A stretch of 64,000 nucleotides of DNA from Candidatus Parcubacteria bacterium. GTDB lineage: Bacteria > Patescibacteriota > Patescibacteriia > PEXW01. This document shows, piece after piece, positions 1,574 to 62,786 of the stretch (positions are counted from its first letter, which is position 1; each line of letters starts with the position of its first letter). Below the pieces are notes generated by a model. The model saw nothing but the letters and a program-made list of their open reading frames with translations. It had not been told where the DNA came from and searched no databases. Made by a program: the position numbers and the translations under genes. The stretch spans positions 44,880 to 108,879 of the forward strand of contig QZJU01000021.1 of assembly GCA_003597955.1 (NCBI GenBank), given 5' to 3'.

Positions 1574-1691
1574 TTTTCCTCCATGAACCATGTTTAATTT
1601 TTTTAGTTTTATCTAAATACCCTAGCAAACCCTGGAAATTTGTCAAAGGCCAATGTTAAAAAGCTACGGAATAAATTATAATCAAGACAAC

Positions 1692-2978
1692 ATGCCTACC
1701 CACAAAACTCAAGATTTATTTGATCAAAGATTGGAAAAAGAATTCGGACGCCACGCGCCCTTGGCCGACCGGATGCGGCCGGAAAAACTGGAGGATTTTT
1801 TCGGCCAAACGGAGATAATCGGCCAGGGCAAGCTGTTGCGCCAAGCCATTGAAAACGACGAAATTTTTTCCATAATTTTCTGGGGGCCGCCGGGCAGCGG
1901 CAAAACCACTTTAGCCAGGATTATCGCCAAACTGACCAAGTCGCATTTTGAACAAATTTCGGCCGTAACTTCGGGCCTGGCGGATTTACGGGCGTTGGTC
2001 AAGCAGGCGCTGGAGAGGCGGAAGTTCCAGAATTTACGGACCATTCTTTTTGTGGATGAAATTCATCGCTGGAACAAAGCCCAGCAGGATTCATTTTTGC
2101 CTTATGTGGAAAACGGCACCATTACTTTAATAGGCGCCACCACAGAAAACCCGTCTTTTGAAGTGATTTCGCCGCTGCTTTCCCGCGCCCGGGTTTTTGT
2201 TTTGGAAAGGCTGGGCGTTCCGGAATTATCCAGAATTGTGAAGCGCGCTTTATTGGATAAAGAAAGAGGTTTGGGCAAGGAAAAAATTAAGCTTGAGGCC
2301 AAGGGCATAGATGTTTTATTGGCCGGATCAAACGGCGATGCCCGGACTTTATTAAATGCTCTGGAAATCGCGGTCAAAGCCACAGCCAAAGACGCAAAAG
2401 GCGTTAAACATATTAAAACCCAGACCGTGGAAGAAGCTTTGCAGCACAAAGCTTTAATGTTCGATAAAAAAGGCGAAGAGCATTACAATGTGATTTCGGC
2501 TTTCATTAAATCCATGCGCGGGTCAGATCCGGACGCGAGCTTGTATTGGTTGAATCGTTTGGTGGAGGCCGGGGAAGATCCGGAATTCATTGCCCGGCGC
2601 ATGGTGGTTTTTGCTTCGGAAGATGTGGGCTTGGCTGATCCAAATGCGCTTGCCGTGGCCGTGAATGTTTTTCAAGCCGTGAAGCTAATCGGCTATCCCG
2701 AATGCCAGATAAATTTGGCTCACGGCGTGGTTTACTTGGCATTAACTCCGAAAAACAACACGGCCTATATGGGCTTAATGAACGCCAAGCAAGACGTGAA
2801 AGATACTTTAAATGAGCCCGTGTCTTTGCATTTGCGCAACGCGGTCACGGATTTGATGAAAGATTTGGGCTATCACAAAGGTTATAAATACAGCCATGAT
2901 TATGATAAAGAGGAGGGTAAACAGGAATATTTGCCAAAGAAATTAGTAGGTCGGAAGTATTTTTTTCCAAAAAAATGA
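1692..2978 (+). CDS. rarA: Replication-associated recombination protein A (RarA/MgsA AAA+ ATPase).
   Basis: Walker A GPPGSGKTTLARIIA and the downstream RarA-specific regions are present. The ORF track start at 1653 is probably an N-terminal extension. Confidence 0.85.
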   Translation: MPTHKTQDLFDQRLEKEFGRHAPLADRMRPEKLEDFFGQTEIIGQGKLLRQAIENDEIFSIIFWGPPGSGKTTLARIIAKLTKSHFEQISAVTSGLADLRALVKQALERRKFQNLRTILFVDEIHRWNKAQQDSFLPYVENGTITLIGATTENPSFEVISPLLSRARVFVLERLGVPELSRIVKRALLDKERGLGKEKIKLEAKGIDVLLAGSNGDARTLLNALEIAVKATAKDAKGVKHIKTQTVEEALQHKALMFDKKGEEHYNVISAFIKSMRGSDPDASLYWLNRLVEAGEDPEFIARRMVVFASEDVGLADPNALAVAVNVFQAVKLIGYPECQINLAHGVVYLALTPKNNTAYMGLMNAKQDVKDTLNEPVSLHLRNAVTDLMKDLGYHKGYKYSHDYDKEEGKQEYLPKKLVGRKYFFPKK

Positions 2979-3523
2979 AATTGCCGCGGTTTAACGAAGC
3001 AGGTTATGCGCATTTTGTTACGTCTAAAACCTATAAAAGCCGAAAAGTTTTTGACAATAAAGAGTGTTGTGAAATTCTGGTTGAGGATTTGAACTTTTAT
3101 GCAAAGAAGTTAAATTTTGAAATTTTAGGTTATTGCGTGATGCCGGAACACCTTCATTTAATTGTGCAGTGGGATGCGGAGAAACATCCGAAATTAACAA
3201 TTTCGAAAATAATGCAAGCGATAAAAAACCATTCTGCAAAAGAAATCGCTTTTTATTTAAAAACGGGTAGGCGAAAGCCCTCGCTTTCGCCATATTCAAA
3301 AGACGCGAGCGAGGGCTCGCGTCTACCCGCGAACTATAAATGGCTTGATCGTGGTTTAGTCCATACTAATTCGCTTGTAAAAATCTGGCAAGCCTCATTC
3401 TACGACTTCAACATTTATTCGGAAAGAATTCTTAACCAAAAATACACCTACATTTATTACAACCCGGTCCGCGCGGGCTTGTGTGAAAAGCCCGAGGATT
3501 GGCCGTGGACTTCCATCAAATAA
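2975..3523 (+). CDS. IS200-like / REP-associated tyrosine transposase (RAYT) family HuH-Y1 protein.
   Basis: HuH motif VMPEHLHLIV and the C-terminal WQASFYDF...YIYYNPVRAGL signature of Y1 transposase-like proteins. It carries a 21-aa low-complexity insertion encoded by a palindromic DNA doublet. Confidence 0.75.
   Translation: MKLPRFNEAGYAHFVTSKTYKSRKVFDNKECCEILVEDLNFYAKKLNFEILGYCVMPEHLHLIVQWDAEKHPKLTISKIMQAIKNHSAKEIAFYLKTGRRKPSLSPYSKDASEGSRLPANYKWLDRGLVHTNSLVKIWQASFYDFNIYSERILNQKYTYIYYNPVRAGLCEKPEDWPWTSIK
3265..3328. repeat. REPIN-like palindromic doublet lying inside the RAYT-like ORF.
   Basis: GGGTAG-GCGAAAGC-CCTC-GCTTTCGC ... GACGCGAGC-GAGG-GCTCGCGTC-TACCC. These are two inverted hairpins with outer GTAG/CTAC arms, and the two hairpins are partly complementary to each other. 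Confidence 0.55.
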
Positions 3524-3524
3524 A

Positions 3525-3556
3525 AAACCAGTCCCATAAATGAGACTGGTTAATGA
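3525..3556. terminator. Bidirectional hairpin terminator.
   Basis: AACCAGTC-ccataaatga-GACTGGTT stem-loop, preceded by an A-run and placed between convergent genes. Confidence 0.45.
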
Positions 3557-5812: not shown

Positions 5813-5925
5813 TTATTTTTTAACCCACTCAATTTTTATTGAGTGGGTTCTTGATTTTTAGGTCAATTTTTGCTATACTATCCATACTGAAAATAAAAAT
5901 AAATACCATGCTACAATTACAGCCA

Positions 5926-7639: not shown

Positions 7640-7672
7640 AAGTCGTGGGTCTTACTTGACTCACGACTTGTT
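7640..7672. terminator. Bidirectional hairpin terminator.
   Basis: AGTCGTGGGTC-ttact-TGACTCACGACT stem, flanked by A-runs and T-runs, between convergent genes. Confidence 0.5.
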
Positions 7673-8941
7673 TAATGATGAGCGTTTAAGTTTTGAATGG
7701 TGATTCTCGAATTTGGGTAGAGCAGCGAGCAGTTGCTGCGTGATGGCATCGGCTTTGAAAATCTGTTTTTGGGCCTTTTGCCACGATTTTTGTTTTAGAA
7801 TTTTTTGCAAATGGCCGTGCAAAATTTCCAATTGTGCGATGAGCGCTTCAAAAACCCGGAGCGGGCTTCTTTCGGAAAAAGGCGAATCCGGTAAGCCCAG
7901 CAGGCCTTGTTGAAAAAGCTTGATAACATTCCGGATATAGTGCAGTTCCACCCACAGCGCGCGGATGCAGTTTTTTTCAACCGTGGCGCGGATTCGGGCT
8001 TTTTGTCGGGCCTTCAATTGTTCGGCCTCGAATATTCCCAAAAGTTCAATCTGACCGGAGTTCAGGTTTCGCAAATGCTTGCTGACCAGTCCGTGGAAAT
8101 CGGTCACTTTGTAGTTTTTCACTAAGGCGTTTTTAAACCACCAACTTTTGATTTGCGCCAGCGTTTCTCCGTTTTGTTGCAACCGGGCCAGCTCAATCGC
8201 AATGCCATAGGGGATTAAGCCCGTTTTGACCGCCCGCTGTATGGAAGCGGGCAACCGGCAGTAACGTAAAGCGTTGCTGACAGTTTGGGGACTGCGGCCC
8301 ACCTGCAAGGCAAAATGTTTGAGCGTATAAGTGGTGTTGATGCCTTTAATCAGTCGAAAAAGCATATCGTAAACATAAGCTTCGTCCTCGGGCGGAATGG
8401 CCATATGCGTGTTTTCCGAAAGCTGCAAAAACAAAGCGGGCAAAGCGGAAATGCCTCGACACAGGTTAATCCGGATTTTTTCTTTTCGAAAATGTTTCCG
8501 AAAGCACTCGCCCGGCTTAAGCTTAAAGTTGGTTTCCCGGCAAACTTCACAGCCGGTTTCCCACAAGTATTTGCATGCCCGCAAGCGCCTTTCTCCAGCC
8601 AGCAAAACATAGTAGCGATTTCGGCCTTTTATGGTTTGGGATCGAAATTGCTTGAGGCGAAACCGGGTGCCCCACAACTGGTTAATGGTTCTTAAGTACT
8701 GCCAAAAGCCATTTTCGGTGAATTCCGCGATGGTTGGCGGATGCAAAAGGCCTTTTTGGGCTAAGTCATTGCCCAGTTCGGGAATATTTTCGAATTTTTG
8801 CCTGGGTTGCGGCAGCACGATGATCGAAAAAATCTCAATTTCGCTGGGAATATATTTATAGGGCTGGGAGCCGTTGCCCAAAAGATTCGCGAAAGCGTCC
8901 AACCGGTTTGGGGTTTTTGAGGTGGGCGGGATTTTCGCCAA
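7661..8941 (-). CDS. ParB/Spo0J-like DNA-binding protein with a Cys4 insertion.
   Basis: ParB N-domain motifs VLPQPRQKF and YYVLLAGERRLRAC, and a ParB HTH region (SENTHMAIPPEDEAYVY...QVGRSPQTVSNALRYCRL). A Cys cluster (CEVC...C-x-C) lies between them. No parA is adjacent. Confidence 0.65.
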   Translation of the reverse strand: MAKIPPTSKTPNRLDAFANLLGNGSQPYKYIPSEIEIFSIIVLPQPRQKFENIPELGNDLAQKGLLHPPTIAEFTENGFWQYLRTINQLWGTRFRLKQFRSQTIKGRNRYYVLLAGERRLRACKYLWETGCEVCRETNFKLKPGECFRKHFRKEKIRINLCRGISALPALFLQLSENTHMAIPPEDEAYVYDMLFRLIKGINTTYTLKHFALQVGRSPQTVSNALRYCRLPASIQRAVKTGLIPYGIAIELARLQQNGETLAQIKSWWFKNALVKNYKVTDFHGLVSKHLRNLNSGQIELLGIFEAEQLKARQKARIRATVEKNCIRALWVELHYIRNVIKLFQQGLLGLPDSPFSERSPLRVFEALIAQLEILHGHLQKILKQKSWQKAQKQIFKADAITQQLLAALPKFENHHSKLKRSSLNKS

Positions 8942-9198: not shown

Positions 9199-9798
9199 AT
9201 GCCCCATCCCGTGCCCGTAATGTTAAAAATTGCCCGATTAGCTTTTGGATTTTGGCTCTTTGTAGAAATTTTAAGTTGGGTCAAAATTTTGCCTTTGACT
9301 TTAGAATTTACCTGGCTGGGCTTGGTGGTGACCGCAAGTTTCGCCTGGGGGATTTTAGAAATTATTTCTTGGCGCTTGCGGAGAGTCGGTGCCCGCAACC
9401 TTTGGGGTCTGACTTATTTCGCGGCCTTATTCAGTCAATGCGTTGACGCTTTTGGCGATATCTCTAGATTCTATGGCAAGTTCGGTTGGTATGATCAATT
9501 TGCGCATTTTGTTGGCGGCGCCGTAGTAGCCTTGGTGATTTTTGATTTGCTCTTGGCCTTGCAGGACTCGGGCAGATTAAATTTACCGGCCAAGGGCCGG
9601 GCCATTATTGCCATTTGCGTTTCAATGGCAGCCGGCAGTCTTTATGAGCTAGAAGAATATGGCGAAGATGTGTTTTTCAACAGCAACCGTCTGGGCAATG
9701 CCTTTGATACGGGCAATGATATGTTCCTGAATACTTTGGGCGCCGCGGTTTTAATCTGGTTGATATATTTTATCAGGCGCCGGCGCAAACTATTATGA
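9199..9798 (+). CDS. Integral membrane protein, function unknown.
   Basis: Multiple hydrophobic helices. Its stop codon overlaps the start codon of the downstream Mur ligase gene. Confidence 0.45.
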   Translation: MPHPVPVMLKIARLAFGFWLFVEILSWVKILPLTLEFTWLGLVVTASFAWGILEIISWRLRRVGARNLWGLTYFAALFSQCVDAFGDISRFYGKFGWYDQFAHFVGGAVVALVIFDLLLALQDSGRLNLPAKGRAIIAICVSMAAGSLYELEEYGEDVFFNSNRLGNAFDTGNDMFLNTLGAAVLIWLIYFIRRRRKLL

Positions 9799-11117
9799 TT
9801 AAACAAATAGTAAAAAAATTTTTGCCTAGGCCGTTAATAAAAATTTACCACAGCTTGGTTGCCCGCCTGGCGGCGGGTTGGTACGGCCTGCCCTCTCGCA
9901 GGCTTTTGGTTATTGGTGTAACCGGAACCAAAGGCAAGTCGACGACCGTGAATATGATTGCCCATTTGCTGGAAGCCTTGGGTGAGCGCGTGGCTTTTTT
10001 TTCCACGGTACAAAGAGGGATTATGAGCGCGCGCTTGACGAATCGCAGTAAAATGACCATGCCTGGCCGGGGTGAACTGCAGAGATTTTTAAGGGAGGCG
10101 GTGCGGGCAGGGTGCACGGCAGCCGTGTTGGAAGTTTCCTCCGAAGGTTTGGCTCAAGGCCGACATTTAGGCATTGCCTTTGATGGCGCCGTGCTTTTGA
10201 ATCTAACGTCGGAGCATATCGAAGCGCATCAGGGTTTTCGGAATTACCGGCAGGCCAAAGAAAGGTTGTTCGCCGGCTTAAATCGGCCGTGGCGAAAGAT
10301 TTTGCATGACAAAGAAATTCCAACCGTTATCGCTGTGAACGCCGATGAAAAATTTGCTTTTAATTATTTGCGTCATGCCGCAGACCGGCGTTTGGCCTGG
10401 ACAATGACTAAAAACGGTGTCAAAGATATTCCGGGTTTGCAAATTTTTAGAGCGCAAGAAATTGAATTATCACCAGCCGGTTCCAAATTCAAAGTAAACG
10501 GCATTTTGGTTAAACTTCCACTCGTCGGCGAATTTAATGTTCAAAACGCCTTAGCCGCAATGACGACATTAACCGGCTTTGGTTATGAAGTAAAAAAATT
10601 AATATACGCCTTGGCTTCAGTACCGAAAACTCCTGGCCGACTGGAAGAAGTGAAATTAAATTCCGCATTCAAGGTTTTTGTGGATTACGCGCATGAGCCG
10701 GCGAGCTTGCAAGCCGTTTACAATGCAGTCAAATTGTTTCAACCCAAGCGCTTGTTAACTTTGTTGGGCAGCCAAGGCGGTGGCCGTGATATTGCCAAGC
10801 GGAGCGTGATGGGCGCGCTCGCCGCAAATTCCGCGAACATTGTTTTTGTCACCAACGAAGATCCCTATGATGAGCCGCCGGAAAAAATCGTGGCTGATGT
10901 CGCCCAGGCGGCCGACAGCGTCGGCAAAGCAAAAGTTTTCGCAATTCCGGATCGACGCTTGGCGATTCGAAAAATGTTGAGCTTGGCCCAACCGGGCGAT
11001 GTTCTGCTTTTAACCGGGAAGGGCGGGGAAGAAGTCATGGCCATTTCCAAGGGCAGATTGATTCCCTGGGATGACCGTCAGGTTTTGCAGGAAGAATACT
11101 TAAAAAATACCCAGTAA
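9795..11117 (+). CDS. murE: Mur ligase family protein, probably UDP-MurNAc-tripeptide synthetase MurE.
   Basis: GVTGTKGKSTT P-loop and Mur ligase middle and C-terminal domain patterns. Confidence 0.7.
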   Translation: MIKQIVKKFLPRPLIKIYHSLVARLAAGWYGLPSRRLLVIGVTGTKGKSTTVNMIAHLLEALGERVAFFSTVQRGIMSARLTNRSKMTMPGRGELQRFLREAVRAGCTAAVLEVSSEGLAQGRHLGIAFDGAVLLNLTSEHIEAHQGFRNYRQAKERLFAGLNRPWRKILHDKEIPTVIAVNADEKFAFNYLRHAADRRLAWTMTKNGVKDIPGLQIFRAQEIELSPAGSKFKVNGILVKLPLVGEFNVQNALAAMTTLTGFGYEVKKLIYALASVPKTPGRLEEVKLNSAFKVFVDYAHEPASLQAVYNAVKLFQPKRLLTLLGSQGGGRDIAKRSVMGALAANSANIVFVTNEDPYDEPPEKIVADVAQAADSVGKAKVFAIPDRRLAIRKMLSLAQPGDVLLLTGKGGEEVMAISKGRLIPWDDRQVLQEEYLKNTQ

Positions 11118-11480: not shown

Positions 11481-14400
11481 ATGCAAAAAAAGCGACATAC
11501 CGTACATCACGAAGGGGCAATTGCCGGCTATAACCGAAAGTCTTTTACTAAGATTCGGGAAGCCACGGCTTTGCCGGATTTGATAGAAATTCAAAAACGC
11601 AGTTACCAATGGTTTTTTGAAGAGGGCTTAAAAGAACTTTTTGATGAAATTTCACCAATCCGGGATTTTATCGGGCGAGATTTGGAATTGTATTTTTTAA
11701 ATTACTATCTGGACGAACCCCGCTTTGACGAGCTGACGGCTAAGGCTAAGAATGTCACTTTTGAAGCGCCGTTGCGGGTGGCAACAAAATTAGTTAACAA
11801 AAAAACCGGGGAAATTAAGGAACAGGAGATTTATTTGGGTGATTTTCCATTGATGACCGATCGCGGAACTTTCATTGTCAACGGCATCGAAAGAGTTGTG
11901 GTCAGCCAGCTGATTCGAAGCGCTGGCGTTTTTTTCACTTCGGAACTAATACGCGGCCGGAAATACTACGGCGCCAAAATTATTCCCAACCGAGGCGCTT
12001 GGCTAGAAATCGAAACCGATGCTCAAGATGTCATGTGGGTGAAAATTGATCGTAAACGTAAAGCGCCGATCACGGCTTTGCTGCGGGCTTTTGGTTATGG
12101 CACAAACGAAGAGATCATTGAACTTTTTAAAACCATTGATACCCATTCCGAGCGCCGGTTTATTGATGCAACTTTTAAAAAAGACCCCAGCCGTTCCGAA
12201 GCCGAAGGCTTGAAAGAAGTCTATAAAAGAATCCGGCCGGGTGATTTGGCAACCACGGATAATGCGCGAGAATTAATTACCAAAATGTTTTTTAGTTTTG
12301 ATCGGTACGACTTTGGACGCGTTGGTCGCTATAAACTAAACCAGCGTTTCAATTTTAATTTCCCCAACGATCCCAGTCACCGGGTTTTACAAAAGGAAGA
12401 CCTCCTGTCAATCTTGCAGATGATCATTAAATTAAATCTAAGCCAAAAAGACGCAGATGACATTGACCATTTGGGAAATCGTCGCGTTAGAGCCATCGGC
12501 GAATTAGTTCAGAATAAATTCCGGGTTGGGCTTTCGCGCATGGAAAGAATAATTAAAGATCGGATGTCGACTTTGGACATTACCACAATTACGCCTAATC
12601 AATTAATTAACGCCCGGCCGATCATTGGTGCCATCAAAGAATTTTTCATGTCATCCCAGCTTTCGCAATTTATGGACCAGACTAATCCGTTGGCCGAGCT
12701 GGAACACAAGCGGCGTTTGTCGGCCATGGGGCCGGGCGGCTTATCGCGTGAACGGGCGGGCTTTGATGTTCGGGATGTGCATCGTACCCACTACGGCCGC
12801 ATTTGCCCGATCGCCACGCCTGAAGGTCCAAACATCGGTTTGGTCGGTCATTTGGCAAGTTATGCGCGAGTGAATGATTTTGGTTTTATTGAAACGCCTT
12901 TCCGAAAAGTTGTCCATGACGTGCCCAATGACGGTAAAGCCGCAGTGGGTGAAATTGCCCGAGAGGATATCGGCGACATTATCAAAGCAGGTCAGGATAT
13001 TTCCGAAGTCCAAGCCAAGGCTTTAGCAAAATTGGAAATCGAAACCGTGCCGGTTAAAGCCAGGGTGACCAAAGAGGTTGTTTATCTCGATGCTTTTACC
13101 GAAGAGCGACACGTTACAACCGCCGCCACCACGCCAACCGACGAAAACGGGTATTTTTTGGTAAATCGCACGGAAATTCGAATGCATGGGGAACCGACCA
13201 CCGGCCCAACAGACAAAATTGACTATATGGATGTTTCACCTAACCAGATTATTTCCATTGCCACATCTTTAATTCCTTTTGTGGAACATGATGATGCGGC
13301 GCGGGCTTTGATGGGCACGAATATGCAGCGGCAGGCTGTTTCTTTGGTCCGGCCCGAATCGCCGGTAATCGGTACGGGCGTGGAAGCCCGCGCCGCCCAG
13401 GATTCGGGGCAAGTTATTTTGGCCAAACAAGCAGGTGTAGTCACTTCGGTCGATGCTAGCCATATTGAAGTTTTGGAAGATGACGGTAATTTACGAACTT
13501 ATCGTTTGGGTAAATTCGTCAGATCTAACGCCTCGACCTGTATGAACCAGAAGCCAATTGTGGAAAAACATCAAAAAGTGAAGGCCGGCGAAGTTTTAGC
13601 TGATGGCGCGGCCACGGACCATGGCGAATTAGCATTGGGCCAAAATGTAATAGTCGCTTTCATTCCCTGGGAAGGCGGAAATTACGAGGACGCGATTTTA
13701 ATTTCTGAAAGATTGGTGCAAAAGGATCGTTATACCTCCATTCACATTGAAGATTTTGTCATTGATGTGCGCGACACGAAATTGGGACCGGAAGTGGTTA
13801 CGCGCGATATTCCGAACATCGGCGAAGAGAAGTTGCGCAATCTAGACGAAGAAGGCATTGTCAGAATCGGCGCGCAGGTTTCGTCTGGCGACATATTGGT
13901 CGGTAAAATCACACCCAAAGGCGAAACCGAGCTTTCTGCGGAAGAAAAATTACTTCGAGCGATTTTTGGCGAAAAAGCCAAAGACGTAAAAGACAGCTCT
14001 TTATATTTGGAGCATGGCGAGCATGGCAAGGTCGTGGATATTAAAATTTTTTCTCGCGAAAAAGGCGATAAGCTGCCTTCCGGAGTTATAAAGAGCATTC
14101 AGGTTTCGGTGGCGCAATTACGAAAAATTCAAGTTGGCGATAAAATGGCCGGTCGGCACGGTAACAAAGGCGTGATTTCCAGAGTGGTCGCGGCGGAAGA
14201 TTTGCCGTACCTGCCAGACGGCACGCCCGTGGATATTGTTTTGAATCCTTTGGGCGTGGCCTCGCGTATGAATTTGGGGCAGATTTTAGAAGTTCACTTG
14301 GGCCTAGCCGCCAAGACCTTAGGTTATAAATTAGTCAGCCCAGGTTTGAACGGCGTTCCCGAAGACATAATCCGGCAAGAATTGAAAAAAGCGGGCTTTC

Positions 14401-37574: not shown

Positions 37575-37606
37575 AAAAAACGTCTTTCCAATTAGAAAGA
37601 CGTTTT
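37575..37606. terminator. Bidirectional terminator with a perfect 12-bp stem.
   Basis: AAAACGTCTTTC-caatta-GAAAGACGTTTT. A second, weaker hairpin precedes it at 37543-37574. Confidence 0.6.
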
Positions 37607-38554: not shown

Positions 38555-38597
38555 TTTAAAAAACCAAACCCCCGCCCGTATGGGCGGGGGTTTTCTT
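38555..38597 (-). terminator. Intrinsic terminator of the giant protein gene.
   Basis: CCCCCGCCC-gtat-GGGCGGGGG stem. On the - strand it is followed by TTTGGTTTTTT. Confidence 0.6.
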
Positions 38598-48817: not shown

Positions 48818-50401
48818 ATGAATGCCGTCCTATTCGCCAGAGTGTCCAGTAAAGAGCAGGAGGAGTCAGGGTACTCCCTCCCCGCTCAAGAAAAACTCCT
48901 TAAAGAATACAGCGAGAGGAAAAGTTTTAGCATTGCTAAGATATTTTCCATTTCAGAGTCAGCAACTGGCAAAAAGCAACGGGAGACATTCAACGAGATG
49001 ATTGAGTATGTGACCAAAGGCAATATCAAGCACATCATCTGCGAGAAAGCCGACAGGCTGACCCGAAACTTCAAGGATATGGTGATGATTGATGACTGGC
49101 TGGGTAAGGACGCAGAACGGCAGGTGCACCTTGTTAAAGACTCTCTCGTCTTGCACCAAAACTCCCGCTCCCAAGAAAAGCTTAACTGGGGTATCCGTGT
49201 GCTGTTCGCAAAAAATTACGTTGATAATCTGGCCGAGGAGGTCAAGAAAGGCAAGCGTGAAAAAGTAGCGCAAGGATGGTATCCGACACGGCCACCTTTA
49301 GGGTATATTTCCGTGGGTGAAAGAAGCCACAGGATTTGCGTACCTGACGAACATAAAGCCCCTCTTATCAGGAAAATGTTTGAGTGGTACGCAACAGGCA
49401 ATTACTCCCTAAAGAAGGTGGTGGAAATGATGTATGAAACGGGCTTAAGGACAATCCACAATACCAAGGTACAAAAAAGTCGGCTTCACCAGATTTTGTC
49501 TGACCCCTTTTACTGCGGAAAAATTGTCTGGAAGGGTGAAGAATATCAGGGGAAACAAGAAAAAATCGTGTCAGAGGAGTTGTTTCAGCAAGTCCAAGCA
49601 ATCCTTAAGCAAAAAACGACCCCGCACTACCGCAAACACCTCTCGCTGTTTAAGGGGTTAATCAGGTGCAGTGAATGTGGCGGGTTAATCACTTGGGAAA
49701 CGCACAAAGGGCATTGGTACGGTCACTGCAACCATTACCGTAACTGCTCCAAAAAGGAGTATGTGAGGCAAGAAAAACTTGAGGAACAACTACTCAACCA
49801 ATTTGTAGCTATAGCGCCTAAAAGCGATAGGTTGGTCAAATGGATACAGGAAGCGCTCAAGGAAAGCCACGCAGACGAGATTACGTTCAATACCCAAGCC
49901 CGTGATGAGCTTAACCGTCGCTATGAACACGCCCAGAAGCGCCTAGAAGTCCTCTACGACGACAAAATTGACGGTAAGATAACTACGGAGTTCTACGAGG
50001 CCAAGTTCAAACAGTACAGCGCAGAGCAGAAGGCTGTTTTGAAATCACTTAATGACCACGATGACGCCAAGTCCAAGTATTACGAGCTTGGTGTTAATGT
50101 GCTCGAGCTGGCTCATAGGGCAAAAGAAATCTACGAGCACCCCAAAATGCTGGTTGAGCAGAGACGGACGCTACTTAACCATATTTTTTCGAACCTGCGC
50201 TTAAATGGCGATAGATTAGAGGTTTCTTACACGCCAGTAGTTGAGGTTTTAGCGCAATTGACTCCCGCCCTCAATAAAACTTTCGAACTCCAGAAAAGTA
50301 CCGCAAACACAACACTAACCCTTCAAAGTATGAACGGTTCTAGTGTTTGGTGCCGGAGAGAGGACTTGAACCTCCAAGGGCTTGCGCCCACACGGCTCTG
50401 A
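48818..50401 (+). CDS. Large serine recombinase (resolvase/invertase N-domain, recombinase domain and zinc ribbon).
   Basis: Catalytic Ser region AVLFARVSSKEQ, a recombinase domain, and a CSECGG...HCNHYRNC zinc ribbon. The last ~17 codons are encoded by tRNA-Leu sequence. Confidence 0.8.
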   Translation: MNAVLFARVSSKEQEESGYSLPAQEKLLKEYSERKSFSIAKIFSISESATGKKQRETFNEMIEYVTKGNIKHIICEKADRLTRNFKDMVMIDDWLGKDAERQVHLVKDSLVLHQNSRSQEKLNWGIRVLFAKNYVDNLAEEVKKGKREKVAQGWYPTRPPLGYISVGERSHRICVPDEHKAPLIRKMFEWYATGNYSLKKVVEMMYETGLRTIHNTKVQKSRLHQILSDPFYCGKIVWKGEEYQGKQEKIVSEELFQQVQAILKQKTTPHYRKHLSLFKGLIRCSECGGLITWETHKGHWYGHCNHYRNCSKKEYVRQEKLEEQLLNQFVAIAPKSDRLVKWIQEALKESHADEITFNTQARDELNRRYEHAQKRLEVLYDDKIDGKITTEFYEAKFKQYSAEQKAVLKSLNDHDDAKSKYYELGVNVLELAHRAKEIYEHPKMLVEQRRTLLNHIFSNLRLNGDRLEVSYTPVVEVLAQLTPALNKTFELQKSTANTTLTLQSMNGSSVWCRREDLNLQGLAPTRL

Positions 50402-50434
50402 ACCGTGCGTGTATACCAGTTTCACCACTCCGGC
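50348..50434 (-). tRNA. tRNA-Leu (anticodon CAG), long variable arm, 3' CCA encoded.
   Basis: The cloverleaf folds by eye. Acceptor GCCGGAG/CTCCGGC, anticodon loop UUCAGAG, T-arm GGAGG-TTCAAGT-CCTCT, then ACCA. Confidence 0.8.
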
Positions 50435-62642: not shown

Positions 62643-62786
62643 AAGATTCAGAAGAGGAACCCCTAGGGGTTCCTCTTCTGTGCATCTCCTCCTCTTCTGG
62701 TGTCGCGTCGTCAGGGCTCGGTTTGGGTACCCACGAGACCCTAAACCTCGCCCTTCCTTGCGACAGTTTAAAGAAAAATTATAAAA

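What the first reader, a model, noticed from the sequence alone, without database searches (positions are those of the whole stretch)
2975..3523. RAYT/IS200-like gene carrying an in-frame GTAG-bearing palindromic doublet (REPIN-like) inside its own ORF
The HuH-Y1 transposase-like ORF contains a 64-nt insert at 3265-3328. The insert is two inverted hairpins (GCGAAAGC-CCTC-GCTTTCGC and GACGCGAGC-GAGG-GCTCGCGTC) bracketed by GGGTAG ... CTACCC. The 5' GTAG plus hairpin is the hallmark of REP elements recognised by RAYTs, and an inverted doublet is the REPIN architecture. Here it sits inside the presumed cognate transposase gene rather than beside it. It is translated as a 21-aa low-complexity loop (GRRKPSLSPYSKDASEGSRLPA) between the HuH region and the catalytic C-terminal WQ...SFYD...YYNPV block, and the reading frame is maintained.
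Basis: partly seen in the sequence, partly recalled or inferred. Interest (0 to 1): 0.75.

Follow-up and report, generated by a model that had tools for sequence, protein, structure and literature searches.

The report
REP hairpin pair inside RAYT gene
A transposase-like gene of an uncultured Patescibacteria bacterium carries, in frame, an inverted pair of the DNA hairpins this enzyme family normally recognises; the feature is real and conserved, but the phenomenon was described for related genes in 2018.

Summary
ORF 2975-3523 is a REP-associated tyrosine transposase (RAYT/TnpA_REP). Positions 3265-3328 hold GGGTAG, a 9-bp hairpin, a 9-nt spacer, a 10-bp hairpin and CTACCC. This is two inverted REP units, read in frame as residues 98-118.

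It is not a recent or private insertion. All 15 Patescibacteria homologues whose DNA I could read (45-76% aa identity) have the same doublet at the same codon phase and position. The foot is invariant in 28 of 30 units (GGGTGG in two). The stems differ and are compensated: 96% of cells paired, and 13 of 18 pairs changed on both sides. Third-codon positions are 75-95% identical in the element against 33-53% in the rest of the gene. AlphaFold2 puts the peptide in a low-confidence loop between helix C and strand 4.

No other unit occurs in the 64-kb window. In about 2 Mb of related loci, units occur only in or next to RAYT genes. Dehalococcoidia relatives carry both flanking and intragenic units.

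Quentin et al. 2018 (PMC6006769) already reported in-frame REPs inside tnpA_REP genes (subclass 2.4). I therefore rate this a new member of a known kind. Function is inferred: most likely a cis ssDNA site for the encoded enzyme.

The parts
1653..2978 (+). Upstream RarA/MgsA-type AAA+ ATPase gene. Its stop overlaps the RAYT start (ATGA), so the two are probably co-transcribed.
   Evidence: ORF list. Pfam families RuvB_N/AAA/MgsA_C on the identical gene in L175. The overlap is read directly from the sequence.
2975..3523 (+). RAYT / TnpA_REP-class HUH-Y1 gene, 182 aa.
   Evidence: NCBIfam NF047646 113 bits (cut-off 80), Pfam PF01797 E = 3.6e-11. 75 homologues, those named by a source all Patescibacteria/Parcubacteria/Kerfeldbacteria MAGs. 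4ER8 is the best match by sequence (E = 3e-6) and by fold (Foldseek E = 4e-8).
3149..3157 (+). HUH motif, H59-L60-H61.
   Evidence: H59 nearly invariant and H61 invariant in alignment A1. It lies on strand 59-65 of the model.
3200..3265 (+). Helix C (residues 76-97), directly upstream of the doublet.
   Evidence: AlphaFold2 helix 76-97, pLDDT about 84-91.
3265..3328 (.). Inverted REP doublet (two feet, two hairpins, spacer), translated as residues 98-118.
   Evidence: Doublet covariance model R1 scores 83.6 bits, E = 2e-22, and this is the only hit in the window.
3265..3270 (+). Foot of unit 1, GGGTAG. It contains the GTAG guide tetranucleotide of REPs.
   Evidence: G4-G6, T7 and G9 are invariant in 14 doublets and 20 units. 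The role of GTAG in characterised RAYTs is taken from PMC8266576 and PMC6006769.
3270..3291 (+). Hairpin 1: 9-bp stem GGCGAAAGC/GCTTTCGCC, loop CCTC.
   Evidence: Perfect inverted repeat I10. 98.4% of cells paired, and 7 of 9 pairs changed on both sides across homologues.
3292..3300 (.). Spacer between the units. It is unconserved and 8-13 nt long in homologues.
   Evidence: Alignment A2.
3301..3324 (+). Hairpin 2: 10-bp stem AGACGCGAGC/GCTCGCGTCT, loop GAGG. It is unit 1 in inverse orientation.
   Evidence: I8. 94.4% of cells paired, and 6 of 9 pairs changed on both sides. At least five compensated basal-stem states occur within the closest subgroup.
3323..3328 (-). Foot of unit 2: CTACCC on the + strand, GGGTAG on the - strand.
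   Evidence: Invariant columns C62, T63, A64, C65, C67. Single-unit model R2 hits 3299-3331 on the - strand at 41.9 bits.
3329..3385 (+). Rest of the helix C to strand 4 linker (residues 119-137). It varies in step with the REP type.
   Evidence: Low or moderate pLDDT, coil. Table of linker sequence against REP type.
3386..3391 (+). W138-Q139 motif at the start of the conserved C-terminal block.
   Evidence: W138 invariant and Q139 nearly invariant. It aligns to the WQ of 4ER8.
3449..3466 (+). Tyrosine motif Y159-I-Y-Y-N163-P164. Y159 is the presumed catalytic Tyr.
   Evidence: Y159 and P164 nearly invariant, N163 invariant. It aligns to YIYINP of E. coli TnpA_REP. It lies on helix 150-166.
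3526..3551 (.). 12-bp imperfect hairpin between the convergent genes. It looks like a terminator, has no GTAG foot, and is not a REP unit.
   Evidence: I7. No hit with R2.

Best explanation
ORF 2975-3523 is a single-copy, vertically inherited RAYT (TnpA_REP-class HUH-Y1 ssDNA endonuclease) of a Patescibacteria bacterium. Its cognate REP partner sits inside the gene. The partner is two inverted REP units, each a GGGTAG foot plus a GC-rich 9-10 bp hairpin. They are inserted in frame in the loop between helix C and strand 4. The units are kept by selection on the nucleic acid, not on the peptide, and the peptide is tolerated as a disordered surface loop.

The mechanism I consider most likely is inferred, not shown. 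When the locus is single-stranded (during replication or transcription), each strand presents a 5'-GGGTAG hairpin. The encoded enzyme binds it and may cleave or rejoin there, as characterised RAYTs do with extragenic REPs. Gene and substrate would then form one inseparable unit.

Three patterns seen in relatives fit DNA-level activity at the feet: local amplification of units, REP-to-REP junctions that truncate tandem gene copies, and REP types distributed as a mosaic relative to the rest of the protein.
For: Identity of the gene (shown):
- NCBIfam, Pfam, PDB sequence and fold matches.
- HUH, WQ and Tyr motifs conserved.

Identity of the element (shown):
- Foot plus hairpin, twice, in inverse orientation.

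Conserved position (shown):
- 15 of 15 Patescibacteria loci have the doublet at the same position and codon phase. It is 59-65 nt long in 11 of them and longer in four, through extra units or a variant 3' foot.
- Dehalococcoidia relatives have one or two units there, plus flanking units in a REPtron layout.

Selection on the hairpins (shown):
- 96.4% of cells paired against 28-44% in slid controls.
- 13 of 18 pairs have changes on both sides, and 0 of 500 shuffles reach the score. The single-unit alignment gives the same picture.
- Within the closest subgroup, five or more compensated states of the basal stem occur under a constant apex.
- Third-codon-position identity is 75-95% in the element against 33-53% elsewhere in the gene.

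Sequence-specific recognition rather than structure alone (partly shown, partly inferred):
- The feet stay GGGT[AG]G / CTACCC while the stems change freely.
- GTAG is the guide motif that purified RAYTs need (PMC8266576; PMC6006769).

DNA rather than RNA (suggestive only):
- 241 Watson-Crick cells, 2 sense-strand G.T and 3 antisense G.T. There is no strand bias.
- Both strands carry the foot.

Peptide is passive (shown or modelled):
- Three or more unrelated peptide types occur at the site.
- pLDDT is below 50 for residues 104-116.

Local DNA activity in relatives (shown):
- L165 has seven or more units inside the gene, plus flanking units.
- L163 copy 1 ends just after its doublet. The roughly 20 nt that follow its CTACCC foot match the stretch (REP foot, then about 20 nt, then ATG) found upstream of copy 1 itself.
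- The nearest neighbours of the N-terminal domain often carry a different REP type.
Against: - No biochemical or expression data exist for this clade. Binding or cleavage of the intragenic units by the encoded protein is inference from E. coli, Stenotrophomonas and Marinomonas enzymes.
- Of the E. coli residues listed as contacting GTAG (W94, Q95, E100, H101, R104), only W and Q are kept here. E becomes D144, H becomes F145 and R becomes Y148.
- Cleaving one's own coding sequence has no obvious benefit.
- An mRNA-level role is not excluded. The sense RNA folds at -43 kcal/mol.
- The covariation controls are not phylogeny-corrected, and the REP types could have been swapped in rather than evolved in place.
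- One homologue (P0067) has lost most of the doublet in frame, so the element is dispensable at least for keeping the ORF open.
Confidence: 0.55

Rival explanations
1. Tolerated passenger. A REP dimer once inserted into a permissive surface loop of its own transposase gene and simply persists, with no role for the host or for the enzyme at this site. This is the reading given for subclass 2.4 in PMC6006769.
For: - The peptide sits in a low-confidence peripheral loop.
- The peptide sequence is not conserved between REP types.
- In-frame REP dimers encoding 20-30 aa are known in many unrelated genes (PMC3733652).
- P0067 shows the doublet can be largely deleted in frame.
- Copy number inside the gene varies (P0018, P0037, P0009, P0021).
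Against: - A neutral passenger should decay. Instead both stems stay at least 94% paired across 45-76% aa divergence, with compensated changes.
- Synonymous sites in the element are far more conserved than in the rest of the gene.
- No dispersed population that could refresh the copy by conversion was seen in the window or in about 259 kb of Patescibacteria flanks.
Confidence: 0.2
2. mRNA-level element. The two hairpins, possibly closed by GGGUA/UACCC into a three-way junction, act in the transcript. They could pause ribosomes between the two halves of the protein, set mRNA stability, or bind the protein for translational autoregulation.
For: - Very stable sense-strand RNA fold: -43.3 kcal/mol, z = -7.0.
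- The element is always transcribed as part of the ORF, and probably of an operon with rarA.
- REP hairpins are known to affect mRNA stability elsewhere (PMC3733652).
Against: - There is no excess of sense-strand G.U pairs (2 against 3 on the antisense strand, out of 252 cells).
- The closing stem never covaries and is instead invariant as the DNA recognition motif GGGTAG on both strands.
- Identical units occur outside the ORF, in either orientation, in relatives.
- No Rfam family matches.
Confidence: 0.15
3. Protein-level function. The inserted loop (G-R-R-K/G-P..., Arg-rich at its start) is an added DNA-contacting arm, and the palindromy is a by-product.
For: - G98 is invariant and R100 nearly invariant.
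- Insertions between helix C and strand 4 lie close to the region that recognises the REP hairpin in 4ER8, according to PMC6006769.
- Helix C sequence, REP type and downstream linker change together.
Against: - G-R-R is simply the forced translation of the invariant GGGTAGGCG.
- The rest of the peptide differs completely between types.
- The model gives no structure there.
- Conservation extends to synonymous positions and to base-pair partners, which protein selection cannot explain.
Confidence: 0.07
4. Chance palindrome or assembly artefact.
For: None found.
Against: - The identical sequence is present in an independent JGI/NCBI contig (L175).
- The same architecture is found in 15 independent assemblies.
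- Shuffles never reach the observed fold energy.
Confidence: 0.01

Closest known systems
REP insertions inside tnpA_REP genes of TnpAY1 subclass 2.4 (Quentin, Siguier, Chandler, Fichant 2018, BMC Genomics 19:475, PMC6006769)
   Same: - REP sequences with a GT[AG]G foot, including 'double foot' forms (5' GT[AG]G ... C[TC]AC 3'), lie inside the RAYT gene.
- They lie between the HUH and Tyr motifs and do not break the frame.
- The insert is variable in length because of short repeats.
- The authors modelled it as a peripheral extension.
- The WQ motif and a protein length of about 190 aa agree.
   Different: - That paper lists Cyanobacteria, Bacteroidetes and 'various phyla'. Parcubacteria and 'candidate phyla' do not occur in its main text, and Parcubacteria and Dehalococc* do not occur in its two text-held supplements.
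- Its motifs are NH[IFV]H and YIxNNP. The window has EHLH and YIYYNP.
- It places the variable insert between strand 3 and helix C, whereas my model places it between helix C and strand 4.
- It reports flanking REPs as well. Here none flank the gene and none occur in 64 kb.
- It did not analyse covariation or synonymous-site conservation.
Canonical REPtron / RAYT-REPIN systems (E. coli TnpA_REP 4ER8; Pseudomonas REPINs, Bertels and Rainey 2011, PMC3116915)
   Same: - HUH-Y1 fold, with the best structural match to 4ER8.
- GTAG foot plus hairpin, with units paired in inverse orientation.
- Single-copy, vertically inherited gene. Synteny with rarA and DUF1003 is kept in L161, and both genes remain nearby in L163 and L170.
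   Different: - REPs there are extragenic, flank the gene, and are dispersed in tens to hundreds of copies.
- Here the only detectable units are inside the ORF.
- The long REPIN hairpin is not the conserved fold (81.7% against 96.4% paired).
In-frame intragenic palindromic repeats in unrelated genes (GTAG/CGTC REPs, Di Nocera et al. 2013, PMC3733652; Rickettsia palindromic elements as cited there)
   Same: Dimers that add 20-30 residues in frame, presumably in loops.
   Different: Those are sporadic insertions from a dispersed family into unrelated genes, at non-conserved sites. This one is in the cognate enzyme's gene, at one fixed site across a deep clade.
IS200/IS605 transposons (IS608, ISDra2)
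   Same: Same catalytic fold. Sub-terminal ssDNA hairpins with a 5' guide tetranucleotide direct cleavage.
   Different: In those elements the hairpins flank the gene as left and right ends and the element is multicopy. NCBIfam transpos_IS200 scores only 36.7 bits, below its cut-off of 55.

Membership tests
RAYT / TnpA_REP (REP-associated tyrosine transposase) | HUH-Y1 core with HUH, WQ and Y...NP motifs, and a curated family model above its cut-off | tested here: met
   NF047646 scores 113.4 bits (cut-off 80) over residues 4-178. H59/H61, W138/Q139 and Y159..N163-P164 are conserved. 4ER8 is the top hit by sequence and by fold.
RAYT / TnpA_REP (REP-associated tyrosine transposase) | Low copy number, vertical inheritance (not IS-like) | tested here: met
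   Only one copy in 64 kb by tblastn. rarA and DUF1003 synteny is kept in L161, and both genes remain nearby in L163 and L170. The whole genome could not be tested.
RAYT / TnpA_REP (REP-associated tyrosine transposase) | Gene associated with GT[AG]G-footed REP hairpins (REPtron) | tested here: met
   Two units lie inside the gene. There are no flanking units in the window. Flanking units are present in relatives L165, L163, L004, L005, L081 and L082.
RAYT / TnpA_REP (REP-associated tyrosine transposase) | Enzyme binds and cleaves its cognate REP as ssDNA | not testable with these tools
   This needs purified protein and oligonucleotide assays such as the CST assay of PMC8266576.
TnpAY1 subclass 2.4 (Quentin et al. 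2018) | Key motifs NH[IFV]H, WQ, YIxNNP | tested here: inconclusive
   The window has EHLH, WQ and YIYYNP. The clade consensus is [DN]H[LVF]H and YIHxNP. Dehalococcoidia relatives have YIHNNP or YMHNNP. The authors' HMMs were not available.
TnpAY1 subclass 2.4 (Quentin et al. 2018) | REP (long or double-foot) inserted in frame inside tnpA_REP, between HUH and Y | tested here: met
   compared with the description.
TnpAY1 subclass 2.4 (Quentin et al. 2018) | Variable insertion located between strand 3 and helix C | tested here: not met
   The AlphaFold2 model has helix 76-97 before the insert and strand 143-147 after it, so the insert lies between helix C and strand 4. phmmer does align residues 120-137 to helix C of 4ER8, so the difference may come from how the region is aligned.
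REPIN (Bertels and Rainey 2011) | Two REPs in inverse orientation separated by a short spacer | tested here: met
   Unit 2 reverse-complemented aligns to unit 1 with the same foot and loop. The spacer is 8-13 nt.
REPIN (Bertels and Rainey 2011) | Population of many copies dispersed in the genome, replicating as a unit | tested here: not met
   No further unit in 64 kb with the filters off; the next best hit is 14.3 bits, E = 0.1. No unit lies away from RAYT genes in 259 kb of Patescibacteria loci. The rest of the genome was not available.
REPIN (Bertels and Rainey 2011) | Doublet folds as one long hairpin | tested here: inconclusive
   The long form is 81.7% paired, and the basal-stem columns are mostly unpaired. 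The two-hairpin form is 96.4% paired. The RNA minimum-energy fold of the window copy is the long form, and the DNA minimum-energy fold is the two-hairpin form.
IS200/IS605 transposase | Curated IS200 model above cut-off; multicopy element with flanking left and right end hairpins | tested here: not met
   NF033573 scores 36.7 bits against a cut-off of 55. The gene is single-copy. There are no flanking hairpins.

The most novel reading that the evidence does not exclude
In this Patescibacteria clade the intragenic doublet is the only REP substrate left in a genome of about 1 Mb. The RAYT would then act on its own coding sequence, as a self-contained enzyme-plus-site unit. The module made of helix C, the REP pair and the linker would co-evolve and be exchanged as a block between paralogues. 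That would be a minimal natural system in which to ask what RAYTs do for the cell. It would also be a case of a protein-coding gene kept under dual selection as an ORF and as the ssDNA target of its own product.
Probability: 0.25. Interest if true: 0.7.

Novelty: new member of a known kind. Interest (0 to 1): 0.4.

Why it matters
What domesticated RAYTs do remains an open question. Quentin et al. [quoted passage not shown]

This locus and its relatives show that the intragenic hairpins are under strong purifying selection at the DNA or RNA level across a deep, small-genome lineage, apparently without a dispersed REP population. If that holds genome-wide, the REP hairpins would be serving the RAYT locus itself, not only acting as mobile passengers. 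The clade would also offer a minimal system of one enzyme and one site for biochemical tests.

For annotation, it explains the odd low-complexity segments (GRRKPSLSP..., GRRGPLTSP..., GSRGVSAST...) in Patescibacteria proteins labelled 'transposase'.

Tried and rejected
1. Looking for REP-encoded peptides in non-RAYT proteins.
- A 42-aa concatenate of the sense and antisense translations found no candidate at all, not even the known RAYT homologues, so the word index is blind to it. This result is uninformative.
- A 30-aa window peptide searched with phmmer against 1.84 billion representatives gave one hit, P0076. This is an unrelated 1298-aa repeat protein (YSRDNTDGSRMP...) that resembles the query by chance. 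It is also uninformative, because the true homologues were not recovered either.

2. Collection scans for relatives.
- Only three Patescibacteria loci came from them.

3. An exact scan of viral contigs for unit 1 found no match.

4. 16-mer self-searches in the loci gave some hits that, on inspection, were chance (L168, L169, L170, L002, L166). The hits in L165, L163 and L173 were real.

5. Rfam gave nothing at gathering score, and only sub-threshold noise over the element.

6. Rejected ideas.
- Intrinsic terminator: no T-run follows either hairpin.
- IS200-type element: below the family cut-off and single-copy.
- The antisense ORF 3024-3299 as a real gene: it has no support and only mirrors the palindrome.
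Full report
**1. What is in the window**

The sequence at 3265-3328 reads GGGTAG-GCGAAAGC-CCTC-GCTTTCGC-CATATTCAAAA-GACGCGAGC-GAGG-GCTCGCGTC-TACCC. The repeat finder reports three features:
- a perfect 9-bp hairpin (3270-3278 / 3283-3291, loop CCTC);
- a perfect 10-bp hairpin (3301-3310 / 3315-3324, loop GAGG);
- an outer 22-nt inverted repeat, 86% complementary.

The ORF 2975-3523 (182 aa) reads through the element in frame as G98-RRKPSLSPYSKDASEGSRL-P118.

The feature is not chance. The 70-nt stretch is far more stable than dinucleotide shuffles, with z = -6.2 as DNA and -7.0 as RNA. Perfect hairpins of this size are rare in the 64 kb.

**2. The gene**

- The protein passes the NCBIfam equivalog model for REP-associated tyrosine transposase (113 bits, cut-off 80). 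It fails the IS200 model (36.7 bits against 55). It matches Pfam Y1_Tnp.
- Its closest solved relative is E. coli TnpA_REP bound to a REP hairpin, 4ER8. The sequence match is E = 3e-6. The AlphaFold2 model (mean pLDDT 82) matches it with Foldseek E = 4e-8.
- HUH (H59, H61), W138-Q139 and Y159...N163-P164 are conserved in 37 aligned homologues.
- The gene's start overlaps the stop of a rarA/mgsA-type ATPase gene (ATGA). A DUF1003 gene follows shortly after. rarA and DUF1003 also lie close to the gene in L161, L163 and L170.
- There is no second copy in the window.
- All 75 homologues found come from uncultured bacteria, and those that carry a name are Patescibacteria, Parcubacteria or Kerfeldbacteria MAGs.

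**3. The element is two inverted REP units**

Reverse-complementing the second half gives GGGTAGACGCGAGCCCTCGCTCGCGTC. This aligns without gaps to the first half, GGGTAGGCGAAAGCCCTCGCTTTCGCC: same foot, same loop, partly different stem. A GT[AG]G tetranucleotide at the foot of a hairpin is the published definition of a canonical REP. It is the guide motif required by purified RAYTs (PMC6006769; PMC8266576).

**4. It is a clade-wide feature, not an event in this gene**

I obtained DNA for 15 Patescibacteria homologues (45-76% aa identity). All have the layout GGGT[AG]G, hairpin, spacer, hairpin, CTACCC. It sits at the same place after helix C, in the same codon phase (G-GGT-AGN). It is 59-65 nt long in 11 of them and longer in the other four, through extra units or a variant 3' foot.

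The stems fall into at least three sequence types:
- type A: GCGAAAGC / GCGAGC with loop CCTC;
- type B: GCGAGGTC / CCGGGTC with loop CCTT;
- type C: several GGC-N6-GCC forms.

These give unrelated peptides: GRRKPSLSP...SEGSRLP, GRRGPLTSP...GQGTRATH and GSRGVSAST...QGTKAL.

Covariation on a 14-sequence alignment:
- the two-hairpin structure is 96.4% paired, against 28-44% when the partners are slid;
- 13 of 18 pairs carry changes on both sides;
- 0 of 500 shuffles reach the covariation score.

The 20-unit alignment gives 96.7% paired, with 8 of 9 pairs compensated.

The alternative single long hairpin (the REPIN form) is only 81.7% paired, and its basal-stem columns are mostly unpaired. The two separate hairpins are therefore what is conserved.

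Within type A alone, the basal stem of hairpin 2 exists in at least five compensated states under an unchanged apex.

Between type A genes, third-codon positions are 75-95% identical inside the element and 33-53% identical in the rest of the gene. Selection therefore acts on the nucleic acid.

**5. Where else the units occur**

I built covariance models of the doublet (R1) and of a single unit (R2).
- In the window, with filters off, R2 finds only the two units (39.3 and 41.9 bits). The next hit scores 14.3 bits, E = 0.1.
- R1 finds only 3262-3331 in the window.
- In 259 kb of Patescibacteria loci, every hit with E below about 0.01 is inside or directly beside a RAYT gene or gene fragment.
- In 1.7 Mb around more distant relatives (Acidobacteria, Chloroflexi and others), the only hits are in five Dehalococcoidia loci. 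There the units flank the gene in a classic REPtron layout and also sit inside it at the same position and phase, as a singlet or a doublet.

More distant relatives have a non-palindromic linker of 25-35 aa at that site. The E. coli enzyme has only about four residues there. So the segment is an insertion relative to the wider family, but ancestral within this clade.

**6. Signs of DNA-level activity in relatives**

- L165 carries seven or more units inside the gene, giving a 269-aa protein, plus units just upstream and downstream.
- L163 has three tandem paralogues. Copy 1, with a type C doublet, stops just after its doublet. The roughly 20 nt after its CTACCC foot match the stretch (REP foot, then about 20 nt, then ATG) that precedes copy 1. 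This suggests REP-to-REP joining. Copy 3 is a nonsense pseudogene that keeps a perfect doublet.
- REP type does not track the similarity of the N-terminal domain. For example, the nearest N-terminal neighbours of type A P0003 are type C and type B proteins at 80-83% identity. Helix C and the downstream linker change together with the REP type.
- L168 (type A) and L169 (type B) are syntenic orthologues with different types.
- These patterns fit block exchange or rapid co-evolution of the module made of helix C, the REP pair and the linker. I did not test this further.

**7. The peptide**

AlphaFold2 gives helix 76-97, then coil to about residue 137 with pLDDT near 50 (below 50 for residues 104-116), then strand 143-147 and the Tyr helix 150-166. 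The insert is thus a low-confidence loop between helix C and strand 4. One homologue (P0067) lacks most of it, in frame.

**8. How it probably works**

Shown:
- a RAYT gene with an in-frame inverted REP pair;
- hairpins and feet under selection;
- a peptide that is variable and predicted to be unstructured;
- no dispersed copies nearby.

Inferred: the units are cis sites for the encoded enzyme on single-stranded DNA. Three points support this.
- The conserved part is exactly the motif RAYTs read.
- Both strands present the motif.
- Non-Watson-Crick cells show no bias towards sense-strand G.U (2 against 3 in 252 cells). This weighs, weakly, against an RNA-only role.

Against this inference:
- only W and Q of the five E. 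coli GTAG-contact residues are retained;
- nothing is known experimentally for this clade.

The rivals are ranked in the Rival explanations section: neutral passenger, mRNA element, functional loop, and artefact. The passenger reading is the published one. It is hard to square with the compensated stems and the conservation of synonymous sites, unless dispersed copies exist elsewhere in the genome.

**9. Comparison with what is known**

Quentin et al. 2018 state that a unique feature of TnpAY1 subclass 2.4 is REP sequences inserted within the tnpA_REP genes themselves. [quoted passage not shown] The paper also describes 'double foot' REPs and variable insert length caused by short repeats. Di Nocera et al. 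2013 list in-frame REP dimers encoding 20-30 aa in many genes. The phenomenon is therefore known.

The following are not in those papers, as far as the held text shows:
- Parcubacteria or candidate phyla;
- fixation of a doublet at one site across a deep clade;
- the covariation and synonymous-site evidence;
- the apparent absence of extragenic units.

Membership of subclass 2.4 itself is unresolved. The motifs fit only partly, and the stated insert position differs.

**10. Verdict**

I rate it a new member of a known kind, with moderate interest (0.4). The interest would rise if whole-genome scans show that the intragenic pair is the only REP in these genomes.

Noticed in passing
window 2975-2978, and L161, L170, L168, L169, L171, L172: The RAYT start overlaps the stop of a RarA/MgsA-type ATPase gene (ATGA). 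In relatives the gene directly follows or sits beside DNA-repair or recombination ATPases: UvrD in L170, ComM/Mg-chelatase-like in L168, L169 and L171, and MgsA nearby in L161, L163 and L172. This could be plain synteny or a functional link to ssDNA processing.
   Followed up: partly
L163 9570-12406: Three tandem RAYT paralogues. Copy 1 (9638-9994) carries a different REP type and ends just after its doublet, at a junction that repeats the stretch (REP foot, about 20 nt, ATG) found upstream of copy 1. Copy 3 (11855-12406) is 89% identical to the full gene, with a CAG-to-TAG nonsense codon right after an intact doublet.
   Followed up: partly
L165 208-1293: The RAYT gene is expanded to 269 aa by seven or more REP units inside the ORF, with further GGGTAG hairpins immediately upstream (208-275) and downstream (1100-1132, 1261-1293). 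This is local amplification of units, in a REPtron-like layout.
   Followed up: partly
alignment A1 (37 proteins), L168 against L169: REP type (A, B or C), helix C sequence and the downstream linker change together, but they are mosaic relative to N-terminal similarity. The syntenic orthologues L168 and L169 carry different REP types. This suggests block exchange or fast co-evolution of the module.
   Followed up: partly
window 2975-3523: Apart from the doublet (GC about 0.57), the RAYT gene is AT-richer (GC about 0.28-0.43 in 60-nt windows) than its neighbours (about 0.45-0.58).
   Followed up: no
window 3265-3330, - strand: The antisense translation of the doublet (GRREPSLASFEYGESEGFRLP) is 55% identical to the sense peptide, which mirrors the palindrome. 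The 91-aa antisense ORF 3024-3299 is probably spurious.
   Followed up: yes
window 62649-62680: A perfect 14-bp hairpin, CAGAAGAGGAACCC-CTAG-GGGTTCCTCTTCTG, the longest perfect stem in the window. It is not a GTAG-type REP. Its context was not examined.
   Followed up: no
window 38566-38593, 5822-5849, 37577-37606: Perfect 12-bp hairpins with A- and T-rich flanks that look like intrinsic terminators.
   Followed up: no
window 7661-8941 (-): A 426-aa ORF with a weak HTH_ParB match on the identical gene in L175. It was not examined.
   Followed up: no
window 50348-50434 (-): A single tRNA-Leu (CAG). No Rfam family reaches its gathering score anywhere in the 64 kb.
   Followed up: yes
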